From: a virus
Taxonomy: Duplodnaviria > Caudoviricetes
Virus record (IMG/VR): IMGVR_UViG_3300028832_000096
Reading direction: 5' to 3' (one strand)
DNA: 64,000 nucleotides
Shown: positions 13,207-50,233 of the stretch, piece after piece
Layout of the letters: each line of letters opens with the position of its first letter
Position numbering within the stretch: position 1 is the stretch's first letter
Notes under the pieces: model-generated
Told to the model about the DNA's origin: nothing
Database searches by the model: none
Seen by the model: the letters and a program-made list of their open reading frames with translations, nothing else
Position numbers and translations under genes: made by a program

Positions 13207-13214
13207 TAACGATT
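13207..13214 (-). promoter_or_regulatory. AATCGTTA motif
   Basis: Overlaps the tail tube stop; upstream of start 13181. Confidence 0.55.
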
Positions 13215-14334
13215 TACTGAATATCTTCAGGCTTAAGATAGATTGCACGAGAAATCTGGAAGGTGCAGGTAACATTTACCAGTCCGCCATCCTGAGACAT
13301 TTCGCCGTTGTTGAGTGAAGAAATCCAAGTACCAGGGCACTTAATAACGTCTCTTGCCTGTCCGCCAGTACCATCGTACTTAATAAAGTAAACTTGTCTC
13401 ATATACTGAGAAGGAAGTCCTAAGCACTCTGTGAGCGGGTCATATACCTGCTTTCTCCAAGCTCTAAGAGCTTCAAGAACATTAGGTGTTGTGTAGCAGT
13501 TAAGTGTCCAAGAAACGTCATTGTAGCTGATTTTCTGAGGGAACTTAATCAAGCCGTTACCATAATGAACAGTAATTGCGTCCTGAGACTCTTCAATTGC
13601 GCCAACTTCCTGTGTAGAAAGTGTTAACATATCAGAGAACTCAGCAGGGCTGGAACCATCCATGTTATAGATTCTGATTTCGAAGTTGTTCTTGTACAAT
13701 GTCGATAGGTAAGTCTATTGTATCAATGTTTCTGACTTTTCCCCCGACCCACACCGGACATGAGACTTTCACCTCATCCGGCGTTCCATCGTATTTATAA
13801 TTACTTCGAATCTAATATAAACACGACTAAAGGCCATCACTCCGCTAAATTATTATCAGTAGCATCATCGCTTCGACCTTAGCTTTTCAGTATTAGTTAA
13901 TTAGCTTATTATTCTTCGACTAAACGCTGAACGCCTAATACCTTTCCTTGTTCCGAAGATTCTATCTTTGCATATATCTTTAGGTGCTTGCTTTGCATAA
14001 AATAATTGAATATTAGATTTTTCTAATATATAGGATTTCATATTCCGCAATTTACTTTCCTACATTATTGTTATACGTTCATTCGCAAGTTCGTCAGCCT
14101 ATTAGACATTCTCACCATGGATATTTTATAGACTCCCGACATTCTTTGCCGACTTCACCGAGCTTTATACATAAGTACTATGCATATCGGATATTAGAGA
14201 AATTACTTAATAATTTTCGAATCTTCAGTTCACCCTTAAGTGCTTAATCTTTTCAATTAAGAACAAGTCGCACGCGGAACATATGAATCAACACCTAACA
14301 TATGGTTGGTGCCCATAGCTAATGGGGTGAACAT
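13214..14334 (-). CDS. Tail tube protein (T4 gp19-like), spliced: exon 1 14334-14274, exon 2 13698-13214, 181 aa
   Basis: Exon 1 MFTPLAMGTNHMLGVDSYVP with AGGAGG RBS joins in frame (C|TG) to YKNNFEIRI...ITVHYGNGLIKFPQKISYNDVSWT...W..QVYDP. Confidence 0.8.
13699..14273 (-). mobile_element. ORF-less group II intron (IIB, bacterial class B-like), 575 nt
   Basis: 5' GTGCGAC; domain V GAACGCCGGATGAGGTGAAAGTCTCATGTCCGGTGTG; domain VI GGGGAAAAGTC...GACTTACCTATCGACAT; EBS1 GCGGAA (14043-14048) complements the exon 1 end TTCCGC. Confidence 0.92.
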
Positions 14335-14390
14335 ATAATGTATTCCTCCTTAATTTGAATTATTTTTGTAGCTTATCTACATTTCAATAC

Positions 14391-14396
14391 AAGGTA
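14391..14396 (-). promoter_or_regulatory. TACCTT variant of the AACCTT motif
   Basis: TACCTTGTATT upstream of tail tube exon 1. Confidence 0.45.
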
Positions 14397-14471: not shown

Positions 14472-16148
14472 ATGCCCACAGGAATACCAGAAAAACTCAA
14501 GCCATGTAAGATATGTAAAGAAATGTTTTTACCTGCAACTCCATCACAAAAGATATGCAAGAACTCACACTATGCGAATTGTCCAATATGCAATAAACCT
14601 ATGTTATGGAATACTACTAGAGCACCTGAACCTTGCTCCAAAGAATGTCGAAAAGAAAAAACAAGAAAATTCTATCAAGAAAAGTACAATGTAGACCATC
14701 CAATGAAAAATGCAGAAGTTAAAAAACATTTCCAGGAAGCTATGAAAAAGAAATATGGTAATGAACATGCTTTACAATGCAAAAAATTTAAAAATAAAGC
14801 TATAGAAACGAACCGAAAGAAATTCGGAACAGATTGGGCATTGAGCAACAAAAATGTTCAAGATAAAAGAAAACAGACGATGTTAGATAGATATGGAGTT
14901 GAATGCCCTTTCAATATGAAAGACTATCAAGAAAAAGTTAAAACAACCTCTAATAAAAAATATGGTGTAGACCATCCATCTAAATCAGAATCGGTTAGAG
15001 AAAATATGAAGCGAGGTATGTTAGATAGATATGGAGTTGAATTTCCATCTCAAAACAAAGAAATATTAAGTAAAATGCAAGCAAAAAGGGCTGCTCATAT
15101 GGATGAGATTGTAGAAAATATTAGGGCAAGCTTTATACAAAAATATGGAGTACCTAATTGTTTTCAATCAGAAGATATCAAAGAAAAAATTGTTAAAACA
15201 TGCATAGACAAATATGGATTTCCAAGTGCAATGCAAAGTGAAGAAGTTAAGAAGAAAGTATCTCAAACGATACGGGAAAGATATGGTGTTAATTGGTTTG
15301 TTCAATCTGAAAAATATCTAGATGCGCATTCGTATATATCTAAAGTAGCGCAACAATTTGCTAATAGATTAATTAGCCGAAACATACCTATATCATATGA
15401 ATTTCCGTTAGATTCTTATAGATATGATATAAAACTAAATAATACACTAGTAGAAATTGACCCAACATACACTCATAGCATCTTAGAAAATCACTGGGGT
15501 CCAGGTTTAGATAAAGATTATCATAAAAATAAAACCGATGTAGCAAATCAAGCTAGTTTCAAGTGTGTCCATGTATTTAGTTGGGACTGCCAAGGAAAGA
15601 TTATAAACATACTTAATCCTAACAAGATATGTGTAGATGATAGTGAATTACAAATATACGTGCTCAACAAAGCAGCAGCTACTAGATTTCTCAACAATTA
15701 CTCAATCCAAGGTAATTATAATAAATCAGCATATTACATAGGGCTAGTTAAAGATGATATTATTTATCAATTGGTAGCAATAGGTAAATCTAGATATAAT
15801 TCTGAATACTATGCCGAAATAACTAGATGGCAAACAAACCCTAACTACAAAATATCTAATGGATATTCTAAGATATTAAACTTTATACAATCAGATGAAT
15901 TCTTATCAGTTAAAAATGTAGTGTTGTACTATGATAAATCTAAACAATTCGAGGACGACATTACGACAAACATGGAGTATGTTCATGATAATCCTCCAAT
16001 AATGATATGGTCTGACCAAGGAAACAAATTTATAACAGATAGAATATTTAAACAATATGGATATAAAGGAATTACTAATGAATTAGATATGATAAAAATG
16101 GGTTGGCGTCCTGTATATAACTGCGGATACAGTGTTTATAAGATTTAA
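14472..16148 (+). CDS. Free-standing homing-endonuclease-like protein (Zn-finger, KYGV repeats, Vsr/Hef-like nuclease)
   Basis: CxxC clusters, about 8 (K/R)YGV(E/D)xP repeats, YDI...VEID...H...YHKNKT...HVFSWD, GWRPVYNCG; lone plus-strand, very AT-rich gene. Confidence 0.7.
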   Translation: MPTGIPEKLKPCKICKEMFLPATPSQKICKNSHYANCPICNKPMLWNTTRAPEPCSKECRKEKTRKFYQEKYNVDHPMKNAEVKKHFQEAMKKKYGNEHALQCKKFKNKAIETNRKKFGTDWALSNKNVQDKRKQTMLDRYGVECPFNMKDYQEKVKTTSNKKYGVDHPSKSESVRENMKRGMLDRYGVEFPSQNKEILSKMQAKRAAHMDEIVENIRASFIQKYGVPNCFQSEDIKEKIVKTCIDKYGFPSAMQSEEVKKKVSQTIRERYGVNWFVQSEKYLDAHSYISKVAQQFANRLISRNIPISYEFPLDSYRYDIKLNNTLVEIDPTYTHSILENHWGPGLDKDYHKNKTDVANQASFKCVHVFSWDCQGKIINILNPNKICVDDSELQIYVLNKAAATRFLNNYSIQGNYNKSAYYIGLVKDDIIYQLVAIGKSRYNSEYYAEITRWQTNPNYKISNGYSKILNFIQSDEFLSVKNVVLYYDKSKQFEDDITTNMEYVHDNPPIMIWSDQGNKFITDRIFKQYGYKGITNELDMIKMGWRPVYNCGYSVYKI

Positions 16149-39581: not shown

Positions 39582-39770
39582 TTAACTGTTTTCCACATCA
39601 TTATTAATTTTTGTATAGACCTCTAAAAACAGTTTGCTTACATCGGCCGGATTATAGTTATACCGCTTAGCAATAACTACTACACCTTGTGCACAACATA
39701 TACAAAGTTCTCTGATGTCCTGAAAGAATGCATCATTTAGTTTTTCTACTTTGCTCATAACGCACCTCAA
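39582..39770 (-). CDS. Small hypothetical protein
   Basis: 62 aa or shorter from MSKVE; GAGGTG RBS. Confidence 0.55.
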   Translation of the reverse strand: MRCVMSKVEKLNDAFFQDIRELCICCAQGVVVIAKRYNYNPADVSKLFLEVYTKINNDVENS

Positions 39771-40759
39771 AACAGCTTCTTAGGTTTCTTAACCTTCTTA
39801 CTGTCGTCGTATTTGTACTTGCCTTTAGTGAGTTGTTGTACTGCCCAAATGTTAAATGATGTTCTTGCATCAGAACTTTCTTGTACATCTTCCCAAGTAA
39901 GCCCGCACTTTGCTAATTCACCCTTTACAGTTTCAAAATCTTCATCACTTGCGAAGTAGCCAAATGCAGCTCCGGACTTATTATTGTCTTTTCTAACACG
40001 CATAGAAGTTGAAATAACTCCAAATGTAGGTGAAAGAATTTTGCTATAAGCGGCCTGGAGTCTATGGCTAACACTATCTGCAGAATAGCATCTGTTCTTT
40101 GCAAGAGACTGTAAAGATGTCATTCCGTATAAATGCGTTTTTACATTAGGGTTACTTGACTTATCAATGATATCATTACACTGCGAAATGTAAATGTCTT
40201 TTTCTTCTTGCGATGCATCGTTAGCTGGAGATATTCCGATATAGTCTAACTTGCTTCCATCTTCGGCACGCCACTCAAGCATGTTCTTAAGGGCATCAAG
40301 AGATTCACCATAGTGGAATACTGGCATCAGCTTTTCAGGAGACTTTAATTTACTACGCATGTAAAGGTAGTTGTCCCAAGACTTCTTTGCAGACTCTACA
40401 TAGTCCTCAGGCTTCTTAGGCTGTTGGAACTTACCTGGGATAGTATCTAACTGAGCAAATACATCAATATATTCATCAATGCTGTTAAGATACTCGATAT
40501 AGTTATCTTCCCACTGCCTAAAAGTAGGTTCTTTGATAGATTTATCAGGAAAATGAGCGTTACCAGTGTGGATAGAAAACGCACCGGAATCAATAAAGAG
40601 CCATCTGCAGAAACCATCCTGCTTATACTTGATAACTAAATCAATTTCACGTCTATCAAGCTGAGATACAAGAACGTCAAGAGGTTCAAAATCAGGCAAG
40701 GACATCAACTTATCGTGAACAAATGGTCTAATTGACCCGCTAAATACGTACTTTTCCAC
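39767..40759 (-). CDS. tRNA-guanine transglycosylase-like (DpdA-like) protein
   Basis: FIDSGAFS, QLDTI, PVFH, HLYG, YSADS TIM-barrel motifs. Confidence 0.65.
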   Translation of the reverse strand: MEKYVFSGSIRPFVHDKLMSLPDFEPLDVLVSQLDRREIDLVIKYKQDGFCRWLFIDSGAFSIHTGNAHFPDKSIKEPTFRQWEDNYIEYLNSIDEYIDVFAQLDTIPGKFQQPKKPEDYVESAKKSWDNYLYMRSKLKSPEKLMPVFHYGESLDALKNMLEWRAEDGSKLDYIGISPANDASQEEKDIYISQCNDIIDKSSNPNVKTHLYGMTSLQSLAKNRCYSADSVSHRLQAAYSKILSPTFGVISTSMRVRKDNNKSGAAFGYFASDEDFETVKGELAKCGLTWEDVQESSDARTSFNIWAVQQLTKGKYKYDDSKKVKKPKKLF

Positions 40760-47817: not shown

Positions 47818-50233
47818 TTAATTAATTACATCGCCGTTAACTCTGTGATGAATGTTATCTACGAAATCTGAAGGTGATATCTTATATTTGTGAATATAAT
47901 CATACATTGCGTCTTCTACTTCCTTTGACCAAGTACCATTTACACCTAATGCAGCATCGCCTATCGGCTTCTTACCGTCTTTATCTTTATAGACCGGTAA
48001 CGTATATTCGCACTCAAATAAGTGATACTGTATCCATTTGATTTCTGATTCAGATAATGTATCTAACGAACCAAAGTTGATGTTAGGCTGCTCATATGAA
48101 CAAGGGAAACTTAATCCGTACCACTTATAAGTTATTTCAACATCACAACTGATAGGGAATGGCAAGAAGTTACCTGCCTCGCTCATCATCTTACCTAAGA
48201 TTTCTGATGCTCTAATAGCATTTCTGATAGGAACTTCTGCAATTATTTCATCATGTACAGGAAGTAATACTTTTGCTCCAAGCTGTTCCCACTCCTTGTT
48301 ACTAAATACTTTAAGCATCGCCATCTTAGTAAGGTCAGCAGCTGAGCCTTGAATTATACTGTTTACACATTTTCTAGAAGCATCAGTAATCTTTCTAGAA
48401 TTATTGATTACTTTGATGTGTTCATCTTGTAAACGCTTTGTTGCCTTTACTACCTGGCCATAATACTTATAGTTATTGAATTCTTCCTCGAGCTTCTTAA
48501 CGATTCTTTCAGGAATTTCATTCTTATTATTAAGTGTTGAAGGGTCAAGTGGGTCAATATCAGGATTTATATATCCCTTAGCGGCCTTAAATTCATAAGG
48601 TTTCAACTGCATATCAGGAATGTGCCTACGCCTACCTAATATAGTTTCAACATAACCATATTTACGAGCATCGCTTTGTGCTTTAATCATGAATGCTCTA
48701 AGATTAGGGAAAGCATTCAGAACTGCGTCATATATAACTTGAGCTTCTTTAGTGCGTTGCTCATCAGTCATCTGTTTATTCCCGCCAAATAACTGGTCAC
48801 CAATAGTTTTTGTAGACCTTCCGTAAAGAATACCTAATACTATGCTTTTTGCTTGACTTCTGCGCTCCTTACCTTCTCTGTTAACTTCATCTGTTTTATT
48901 TCCGTTTGCATCGAAGAAATGTTCGGAACACTCTTCATAAGTTTTGTTGAAAGCAAGTGCTGCAATAGTAGAATAGATGTCTCTATTATGTTTAAAAGCA
49001 TCTATCATATTCGGGTCCGAACTGACAAACGCTGTCATTTTTGGTTCTTGTTGCTATCTTAGTTATGTGCTCGTTACGCACTTCTCTTGTTACCAAGAGT
49101 GTCGGACTATCTCTTGAATACTATATACTGTTACTATATACAGTAAGCCCTGGCATTTCCATTTAACAGATTTACTATAGACTATTATCATCTATAAACT
49201 GACCGACTTCGGCTGTACCCTACTTGCTTGGTTATCTCAATCTACCTGAATTCTCATTTACATATTTCTATGATTGTAGATTTTTAGCTTTTGGTAGTCT
49301 CTACACACGATAGACCCATTTTAACCCTTTGATGTATTTGTCAAATTTAGCAGATTCTTTAATTTTGTCGTTTAATTGGTCGCTAGATTTAACGGTTCCA
49401 TAACCATTAGCATACCACCAATTAGCAGCATCTTTGACACGCTCAAACTCAGCTACAAAACTGCCTTGTGTATCAATACAATAAACGCATTTGTTTTTTG
49501 AATCATTTAACGCTTTATAATGTGCTTCGCTAAGTTTAAAAGATTTCCTAAATTTTGCCCTAACTTCTTGACCTTTTTCAGAAGCATATAAAGCTTTTCG
49601 GCTATCAGATAGATGTTTTTTATGCTCTTTAGAAGGCCCACCTCTATCTTTATATGATTGCTTCATTGATTCCGAAATGCGTTTACGGACATCTTCGCTA
49701 CGCATTATATTATCATGCTTTTCTTTTACTATTACAGAATACATTGTATTTATTGACCCTCCAGGAGCCATATTGTATCCATTTCTTATAGTATCATATT
49801 TAGCAATATAATATGCTTCGAGTTCATTGAGCGTATCTTGGTCCTCCACTTCAGCAATAATTTGAAAGTGAAATTTGTCCCATCCGTACTTTCGCATTGC
49901 ATTATACAAATGAGTATTGACGTCAGACACCATGCTATTTCGATGCCCATCTATTCGTTCTTTCAATGTTTTAGTGGTTTGACCAATATACAATTTGTCA
50001 TTTACATCATTGGTTATCTTATATATCAACATATTCGGCACCTCCAAGATATATTAAAGGTTATTCCCAACAAGTTGATAGTCTATCTTGCTCGGTATTG
50101 TCTCTCTAACGAACCTTATTAGAAAGAGTTCACCGACTTAACCAGGTTTTACTACAGCCAACACTTAACTGTAGTCAGCAGACAACATCACGCAAGGTGG
50201 AGTCATCACTGGAATTTGAAATTTCTTTGACAA
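47818..50233 (-). CDS. Family A DNA polymerase, C-terminal subunit; spliced exon 1 50233-50168, exon 2 49053-47818 (about 433 aa)
   Basis: TTG start 8 nt after AAGGAGGT; MSKKFQIPVMTPPCVMLSADYS|QQEPKMTAF restores motif A; motif B RSQAKSIVLGILYG; motif C VHDE. Confidence 0.8.
49301..50032 (-). CDS. Intron-encoded GIY-YIG homing endonuclease
   Basis: LIYKITN...LYIGQT...R...H...E...GYN; GGAGGT RBS before ATG 50032. Confidence 0.9.
   Translation of the reverse strand: MLIYKITNDVNDKLYIGQTTKTLKERIDGHRNSMVSDVNTHLYNAMRKYGWDKFHFQIIAEVEDQDTLNELEAYYIAKYDTIRNGYNMAPGGSINTMYSVIVKEKHDNIMRSEDVRKRISESMKQSYKDRGGPSKEHKKHLSDSRKALYASEKGQEVRAKFRKSFKLSEAHYKALNDSKNKCVYCIDTQGSFVAEFERVKDAANWWYANGYGTVKSSDQLNDKIKESAKFDKYIKGLKWVYRV
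50057..50062 (-). promoter_or_regulatory. AACCTT motif inside the group I intron
   Basis: AACCTTTAATAT about 25 nt upstream of the GIY-YIG ORF. Confidence 0.55.

What the first reader, a model, noticed from the sequence alone, without database searches (positions are those of the whole stretch)
13699..14273. ORF-less group II intron interrupting the essential tail tube gene
Seen: canonical GUGCG start, class B-like DV with CGC triad, DVI ending in AU, EBS1/IBS1 complementarity, and exact in-frame restoration of a 181-aa tube protein. At 575 nt it has no RT/maturase ORF, and none is in the window. Known: phage introns are mostly group I, and bacterial group II introns usually avoid essential genes. 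Inference: virion assembly depends on maturase-independent splicing or on a maturase supplied in trans, which could act as a regulatory or host-range checkpoint.
Basis: partly seen in the sequence, partly recalled or inferred. Interest (0 to 1): 0.82.

Follow-up and report, generated by a model that had tools for sequence, protein, structure and literature searches.

The report
Protein-less intron with neighbouring nuclease partner
A small self-splicing RNA intron that encodes no protein splits the tail-tube gene of an uncultured gut or rumen phage; such introns were described in other phages in 2025, but this one is always present wherever a particular DNA-cutting gene sits next door, which suggests the intron spreads by riding on that enzyme.

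Summary
Observation confirmed. 14273->13699 (minus strand, 575 nt) is an intact ORF-less group IIB intron. Removing it gives a 181-aa gp19-fold tube protein, 90.6% identical to uninterrupted homologs. The same intron sits at the same site in 14 other phage loci, with compensatory stem changes and EBS1/IBS1 covariation. DIV is always a ~38-nt hairpin. No group II RT was found in the window or in 17 near-complete relatives, and only 9 of 121 genomes of the likely host family carry this intron class, so maturase-free splicing is likely (not shown). ORF-less IIB introns in essential phage genes, including a tail gene, are already published (Merk 2025). The 'checkpoint' idea has no support: most relatives lack the intron, and the gene's first 25 codons are an intron hot spot. 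New here: the divergent neighbour (14472-16148) is an EDxHD-type endonuclease whose clade lies beside this intron in 9 of 9 loci (5 picked blind) and co-diverges with it (r 0.96, against 0.57 for exon 2). This fits collaborative homing, so far known only for group I introns (about 45%; sharp exon boundaries argue against). The scan noted this idea on this DNA and a similar case in another phage.

The parts
14274..14334 (-). Tube gene exon 1 (20 codons + 1 nt), ending in IBS1 at 14279-14274; GGAGG ribosome-binding site just upstream
   Evidence: pN/pS 0.17 among 11 intron-bearing alleles
13699..14273 (-). ORF-less group IIB intron (class B-like RNA), 575 nt
13947..14267 (-). Domain I, with the AAGC epsilon-prime bulge (14165-14162), tetraloop receptor (14119-14115 with 13984-13978), delta U (14049), EBS1 (14048-14043, extendable to 14041) and EBS3 A (13993)
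   Evidence: alignment fold and pair counts; EBS1/IBS1 and EBS3/IBS3 covariation across target sites; coordinates. Names of tertiary contacts follow established group II anatomy.
13828..13942 (-). Domains II and III with the J2/3 linker AGC (13884-13882)
   Evidence: consensus fold; J2/3 assignment by analogy with CGC-triad introns (own knowledge)
13789..13826 (-). Domain IV: 38-nt hairpin, no ORF, no DIVa-like arm
   Evidence: 121/121 cells paired, 4 pairs with two-sided changes in 11 alleles
13751..13785 (-). Domain V, CGC triad at 13783-13781, GAAA loop
13701..13748 (-). Domain VI, bulged branch A at 13706
   Evidence: basal stem 55/55 cells paired, 3 two-sided changes
13214..13698 (-). Tube gene exon 2; with exon 1 it encodes a 181-aa T4 gp19-fold tail tube protein
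   Evidence: PHROG 4542 E 4.7e-12; Foldseek of an 88%-identical intronless homolog to the T4 tail tube 5W5F, E 1.2e-7
14472..16148 (+). Free-standing 558-aa putative homing endonuclease, divergent from the tube gene and starting 198 bp from the insertion site: zinc finger and DUF7487 repeats, EDxHD/Vsr-type nuclease, Mom-like GNAT domain
   Evidence: Pfam/PHROG; invariant E, D, E, H, H; VIA Z 8.9 to I-Bth0305I 3R3P, 91 aligned, rmsd 3.0; Foldseek to Mu Mom 8BV8

Best explanation
A functional, compact group IIB ribozyme that lost its reverse transcriptase long ago sits after codon 20 of the single tail tube gene. It splices itself out of the late mRNA by branching, without a cognate maturase and perhaps helped by general RNA chaperones (inferred), so the phage makes a normal tube. 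It is a tolerated parasite, not a regulator. It most likely persists and spreads at the DNA level with the adjacent free-standing EDxHD endonuclease: the enzyme would cut intron-less tube alleles at or near the insertion site in mixed infections, recombination repair (the phage encodes a UvsX-like recombinase) would copy the intron and sometimes the nuclease gene, and the intron would protect its own genome by splitting the target. Shown: anatomy, conservation, absence of RT where searchable, one-way association and co-divergence with the nuclease. Inferred: splicing, cleavage, target site, direction of transfer. My odds: functional intron 0.95; maturase-independent splicing 0.7; nuclease partnership as the cause of the association 0.45. 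The confidence given is for the whole statement.
For: Function: stops in all frames; exon 1 under purifying selection; compensatory changes in DI, DIV, DV, DVI; EBS1/IBS1 change together between intron types A and B and across five other target sites, and EBS3 follows IBS3. No maturase: DIV short in every complete allele; no group II D5/D6 or group II RT in 17 near-complete relatives, the one RT looking DGR-like; nearest RNA relatives are also RT-less (support only 77/96); 9 of 121 genomes in the family of a likely host carry this intron class; precedent C.te.I1 (PMC3919590). Mobility: intron-bearing exon-2 alleles are not one clade (6 changes, AU p 1e-30); intron and exon-2 branch lengths are not proportional (LRT 73.7, df 16, p 2e-9; within-exon controls p 0.006 and 0.01). 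Partner: the nuclease clade (support 100, stem 0.41) lies beside the intron in 9 of 9 readable loci, 5 of them fetched by the nuclease alone, against about 1 in 60 unselected loci; nuclease subclades A and B match intron types A and B; distances correlate at 0.96 (intron-nuclease) against 0.57 (intron-exon 2); the reverse does not hold, as the intron also occurs beside nuclease-less or other genes. IBS1 is perfect in only 1 of 43 intron-less alleles plus two wobble-free near misses, so RNA-level homing has few targets.
Against: Exon residues right beside the intron (codon 17 S or N; codons 22-24) follow the exon-2 lineage, not the intron or nuclease type, whereas break repair usually co-converts flanks and carrying the nuclease should carry exon 1. 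The nuclease starts only 198 bp away, so linkage alone gives some association; the nine loci are not independent (two subclades, a few tube lineages), and r rests on 6 loci dominated by the A/B split. Free-standing nucleases of this superfamily are common beside intron-less tube genes (13 of 23 unselected loci). No RNA data could be obtained. Whole genomes of intron-bearing phages could not be searched for RT.
Confidence: 0.45

Rival explanations
1. Same functional, maturase-free intron, but the tie to the nuclease is plain linkage: both arrived in an ancestor of this phage subgroup, were inherited together, and ordinary recombination (easiest inside the highly conserved intron) plus repeated loss produced the patchy pattern.
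For: All intron-bearing alleles fall in one 20-row tube subclade; well-supported nodes of the intron tree agree with the exon tree; neighbouring genes are generally mosaic; distance to the nuclease is 198 bp.
Against: The slot upstream of the tube gene turns over freely: the 270-aa family occurs with four different intron states, yet the A/B nuclease clade is never seen without this intron. At least five precise losses are needed, each followed by synonymous change in IBS1.
Confidence: 0.28
2. The intron spreads by retrohoming, and perhaps splices, with a class B reverse transcriptase supplied in trans by a host intron or by one elsewhere in the phage genome, as shown for Thermosynechococcus ORF-less introns and proposed for phage LPJP1.
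For: Sharp boundaries with no co-conversion beyond about 10 nt upstream and 1 nt downstream; RT-less sisters occupy several other sites with re-matched EBS1, which needs RT at some time; RT-coding introns of this class exist in 7% of the host family sample; PMC2882425.
Against: No DIVa-like arm; no group II RT in the window or 17 near-complete relatives; host introns match only in short blocks; matching IBS1 is rare in intron-less alleles; does not explain the nuclease association.
Confidence: 0.2
3. One reading: splicing depends on a host or phage factor and acts as a regulatory or host-range checkpoint for virion assembly.
For: The gene is single-copy and presumably essential; unspliced RNA gives only a 25-residue peptide.
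Against: Nearest relatives lack the intron; the same 75 bp carry unrelated ORF-less group I introns at codons 8, 10, 12 and 24, the pattern of a parasite hot spot; dependence on an element present in 7% of likely hosts would be costly.
Confidence: 0.05

Closest known systems
ORF-less group IIB introns of phages c-st (minor tail protein, 683 nt), PALS_2 (580 nt), Internexus (594 nt) and LPJP1 (three; 625-690 nt); Merk, Jones, Eddy 2025, PMC12350094
   Same: IIB RNA matching RF02004, CGC or AGC triad, about 600 nt, no ORF, inside essential phage genes, defined by intron-less homologs; none shown experimentally to splice.
   Different: Different phage group and gene (gp19-fold tube); sequence match limited to DV/DVI; here a population of alleles is available; an adjacent free-standing nuclease partner was not reported there (their endonucleases lie inside DIV).
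Collaborative homing (cyanophage S-PM2 psbA intron with F-CphI, Zeng 2009; Bonocora and Shub 2009) and trans homing (T4 mobE with the nrdB intron, PMC2790892)
   Same: Endonuclease-less intron in a conserved phage gene with a free-standing endonuclease gene next to it, inherited together.
   Different: All described cases are group I introns; I found no paper on a group II case. Cleavage was shown there and is untested here; the nuclease here is EDxHD/Vsr-type with a Mom-like domain.
C.te.I1 of Clostridium tetani (PMC3919590)
   Same: ORF-less class B intron that splices with no intron-encoded protein anywhere in the genome.
   Different: C.te.I1 has a 311-nt DIV loop, a shifted 5' splice site, alternative 3' exons and splices by hydrolysis in vitro; this intron has canonical ends, a bulged A and a 38-nt DIV.
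EDxHD homing endonucleases (I-Bth0305I, PDB 3R3P) and Hef-like phage nucleases
   Same: Catalytic-domain fold (Z 8.9) and conserved acidic and histidine residues.
   Different: Free-standing rather than intron-encoded; DUF7487 repeats and a C-terminal Mom-like domain; the likeness to Hef is from memory and was not tested.

Membership tests
Group II intron, subgroup IIB | DV with catalytic triad and DVI with bulged A eight nt from the 3' end | tested here: met
Group II intron, subgroup IIB | 5' GUGYG, 3' AY, six-domain fold | tested here: met
   (alignment fold with covariation; the single-sequence fold alone is unremarkable, z -1.18)
Group II intron, subgroup IIB | 4-nt AARC bulge at lambda/epsilon-prime | tested here: met
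   AAGC at 14165-14162; criterion from PMC12350094
Group II intron, subgroup IIB | EBS1-IBS1 and EBS3-IBS3 pairing | tested here: met
   covariation across alleles and sister introns
Group II intron, subgroup IIB | EBS2-IBS2 pairing | tested here: inconclusive
   candidate region gives only 3 bp in this allele and 3-5 bp in others, read by eye
Group II intron, subgroup IIB | Discrete insertion relative to an intron-less homolog | tested here: met
Group II intron, subgroup IIB | Splicing to ligated exons and lariat | not testable with these tools
Bacterial class B (IEP-based class) | Phylogenetic placement of the intron-encoded protein | not testable with these tools
   no protein is encoded; RNA resembles RT-coding Firmicutes introns, whose class B label is from my own knowledge
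Collaborative homing system | Intron lacks its own mobility protein | tested here: met
Collaborative homing system | Adjacent free-standing endonuclease with an intact active site | tested here: met
Collaborative homing system | Endonuclease occurs only with the intron-bearing allele | tested here: met
   9 of 9 loci, 5 blind; not independent samples
Collaborative homing system | Co-conversion of flanking exon sequence | tested here: inconclusive
   IBS1 region travels with the intron, but codon 17 and codons 22-24 do not
Collaborative homing system | Cleavage of the intron-less allele at the insertion site | not testable with these tools
   needs a biochemical assay
T4 gp19-like tail tube protein | Tube fold and profile match | tested here: met
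   baseplate tube initiators share the fold and score similarly, the 181-aa length favours the tube itself
T4 gp19-like tail tube protein | Essential for virion assembly | not testable with these tools
   single copy in 5 complete relatives and in the window; essentiality is inferred

The most novel reading that the evidence does not exclude
A group II ribozyme that has dropped reverse transcription altogether and survives as the immunity half of a two-part selfish element: a free-standing EDxHD endonuclease cuts intron-less tube genes, the intron splits the target and is copied by DNA repair. This would be the first collaborative homing system with a group II intron, and the missing step before the endonuclease-containing phage group II introns described in 2025.
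Probability: 0.42. Interest if true: 0.72.

Novelty: new variant of a known kind. Interest (0 to 1): 0.56.

Why it matters
It bears on an open question left by the 2025 survey: how protein-less group II introns in essential phage genes splice and spread. This locus supplies a 575-nt natural ribozyme with 14 allelic relatives, matched intron-less targets and a named candidate enzyme, so both maturase-free splicing and collaborative homing can be tested with short synthetic substrates. A compact IIB intron that splices without a maturase would also be a useful structural model. As merely another ORF-less phage intron it would be an ordinary new member.

Tried and rejected
Whole-genome access: none held; records behind L051, L053, L054, L065 not searchable. 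A D1 pattern found no copy in the species-genome collection. The nuclease found no close relative in viral contigs. A sequence search of solved structures for the nuclease gave nothing. Alternative start at TTG 13699: rejected, no ribosome-binding site and exon-1 peptide conserved. Decayed or recently ORF-deleted intron: rejected, DIV is the same short hairpin over 16-18% divergence with compensatory changes. A 10-bp extended EBS1 is possible on paper but the extra bases belong to a conserved AGUA/GAA motif and to constrained codons, so only 6-8 bp are claimed. Several of my hand-set helix registers were off; only helices confirmed by the alignment fold are cited. Contact between residue 17 and residues 22-24 could not be judged (pLDDT below 50). 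A first family tree held no RT-coding intron and was replaced. An early idea that the intron had no tie to the nuclease, because L051 and L108 lack it, was dropped after the blind test.

Full report
Observation. The window is a phage fragment (portal, holin, endolysin, primase, helicase, polymerase, UvsX-like recombinase). On the minus strand, 14273 to 13699 is a 575-nt group II intron: Rfam RF02004 at 63 bits and RF00029 at 57.5 bits. Exon 1 (14334-14274) and exon 2 (13698-13214) join to 181 codons, and all frames through the intron are closed. The joined protein aligns over its whole length at 90.6% with uninterrupted genes in L001 and L002. The exon-1 peptide is conserved in 65 homologs. 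The protein matches a PHROG tail tube family, a model of an intron-less homolog matches the T4 tail tube, and the gene is single-copy in five complete relatives. Essentiality is an inference from that.

Anatomy. The alignment of 11 alleles folds into the six-domain wheel. It has the AAGC bulge that marks subgroup IIB, a CGC triad, a bulged A eight bases from the end, and a DIV of 38 nt. DIV is paired in 121 of 121 cells with four two-sided changes; the DVI base in 55 of 55 with three; DI(ii) in 66 of 66 with two. EBS1 and IBS1 change together between type A alleles (like the window) and type B alleles, and also in sister introns at other sites; EBS3 is A where exon 2 starts with U and U where it starts with A. 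EBS2 is weak. Exon 1 in intron-bearing alleles has pN/pS 0.17.

Distribution. The same intron at the same site was found in 14 other loci: type A at 90-94% (L004 with L058, L051, L052, L053, L054, L108, L109/L110, L114, L115) and type B at about 80% (L061, L062, L116, L117, L122). All complete copies are 568-584 nt and ORF-less. In unselected viral contigs only about 1 locus in 60 has it. The first 25 codons of the same gene carry ORF-less group I introns at codons 8, 10, 12 and 24 in other relatives, sometimes together with the group II intron. This is a hot spot for selfish elements and argues against a regulatory role.

Maturase. None of 23 group II RT queries hits the window. Of 50 related records, 17 near-complete, none has another group II D5/D6, and the single RT looks DGR-like. 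A relative lies in the Ruminococcus callidus chromosome, which points to Clostridia hosts; 9 of 121 genomes in that family match the same D1 model, and only in short blocks. In a tree of 42 introns, the tube introns form a clade (99/100) whose nearest neighbours are other RT-less introns, either ORF-less or with an endonuclease in DIV, with weak support of 77/96. C.te.I1 is a precedent for splicing with no intron-encoded protein (PMC3919590). I put maturase-independent splicing at about 0.7. The caveat is that no complete intron-bearing genome could be searched.

Mobility. On an exon-2 tree the intron-bearing alleles need six changes and cannot be one clade (AU p 1e-30; type A alone p 3e-5). 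Intron and exon-2 branch lengths are not proportional (p 2e-9; controls about 0.01); the branch that separates L053/L054 from the window's clade is 0.17 in the exon and about zero in the intron. The intron also evolves about 3.6 times slower than the exon, so constraint and homogenisation explain part of this.

The neighbour. The gene at 14472-16148 runs away from the tube gene, 198 bp from the insertion site. It has DUF7487 repeats, a nuclease domain with invariant E, D, E, H and H that aligns with the EDxHD homing endonuclease I-Bth0305I (Z 8.9), and a Mom-like domain. Its relatives fall into tiers of 77-82%, 49-54% and 44% or less; the first two form one clade with full support and a long stem. 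After seeing this clade beside four intron-bearing loci, I fetched five more loci by the nuclease alone: all five carry the intron, and of the matching type. The clade is thus 9 of 9 with the intron. The reverse is not true: L058 and L108-L110 have the intron beside nuclease-less derivatives, and L051 beside another nuclease clade that goes with the codon-8 group I intron. Distances among six loci correlate at 0.96 between intron and nuclease and at 0.57 between intron and exon 2. Across unselected loci, any 5' intron is more frequent beside an intact nuclease (10 of 23 against 6 of 36, p 0.036, uncorrected for kinship). This one-way dependence is what collaborative homing predicts (PMC2988022, PMC2790892).

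Against it. Codon 17 (S or N) and codons 22-24 follow the exon-2 lineage, not the intron or nuclease type. One continuous repair tract cannot give this; it needs two steps, short tracts, or selection for compatible tube residues. Sharp boundaries suit retrohoming, but a perfect IBS1 is rare in intron-less alleles and no RT is at hand. Linkage over 198 bp remains a serious rival, and the nine loci are not independent. I give 0.45 to the partnership, 0.28 to linkage with loss, 0.2 to RT in trans and 0.05 to a checkpoint.

Comparison and verdict. ORF-less IIB introns in essential phage genes, one of them a tail gene, were published in 2025 (PMC12350094), so the finding as written is a new member of a known kind. 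A group II intron tied to a free-standing endonuclease was not found in the papers searched. First-stage notes of this scan raised the same idea on this DNA, and a follow-up described a similar pair in a 332-kb phage; I reached the idea before reading them, and confirmed only that L070, from a phage of that size, has a nuclease-domain ORF just upstream of an ORF-less sister intron. Verdict: new variant of a known kind, interest 0.56.

Noticed in passing
window 49054-50167 (minus): The DNA polymerase gene is split around a GIY-YIG ORF (50047-49301) with group I-like flanks; below the Rfam cut-off.
   Followed up: partly
L003, L005, L107, L111, L051, L058 (codon 8); L014, L023, L185 (codon 10); L184 (codon 12); L031, L046 (codon 24); L044: ORF-less group I introns, some confirmed by Rfam, crowd the first 25 codons of the tube gene; several nuclease subfamilies seem to pair with particular ones (457-aa type 3 of 3 and 517-564-aa type 2 of 2 with the codon-8 intron).
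   Followed up: partly
upstream slot in L001, L007, L017, L108 and others: 214-276-aa proteins that keep the Mom-like C-terminal domain but lack the nuclease motif fill the same slot; they may be decayed nucleases or have a function of their own.
   Followed up: partly
L057, L059, L063, L064: An FtsK-like ATPase gene carries up to three ORF-less sister group II introns within about 100 coding bases, with a nuclease-domain ORF just downstream.
   Followed up: partly
L065:450-2104, L077, L096, L090: Sister group II introns with an ORF other than RT in DIV (EDxHD-like in L065, GIY-YIG-like in L077), like those of Merk 2025.
   Followed up: partly
L070:1-1709: ORF-less sister intron (637 nt) at the start of an ATPase gene in a 332-kb phage, with a nuclease-domain ORF directly upstream.
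   Followed up: partly
window 14387-14396 (minus): An ACCTT-containing motif about 55 nt upstream of the tube start is shared by many relatives and may be a late promoter; 26 near matches in the window against 14 expected.
   Followed up: partly
L203: A relative of this phage lies in the complete chromosome of Ruminococcus callidus ATCC 27760, so the group may be temperate and culturable.
   Followed up: no
window 39767-40759 (minus): Queuine tRNA-ribosyltransferase-like gene, possibly part of a DNA modification pathway.
   Followed up: no
L113: DGR-like reverse transcriptase cassette in one relative.
   Followed up: no
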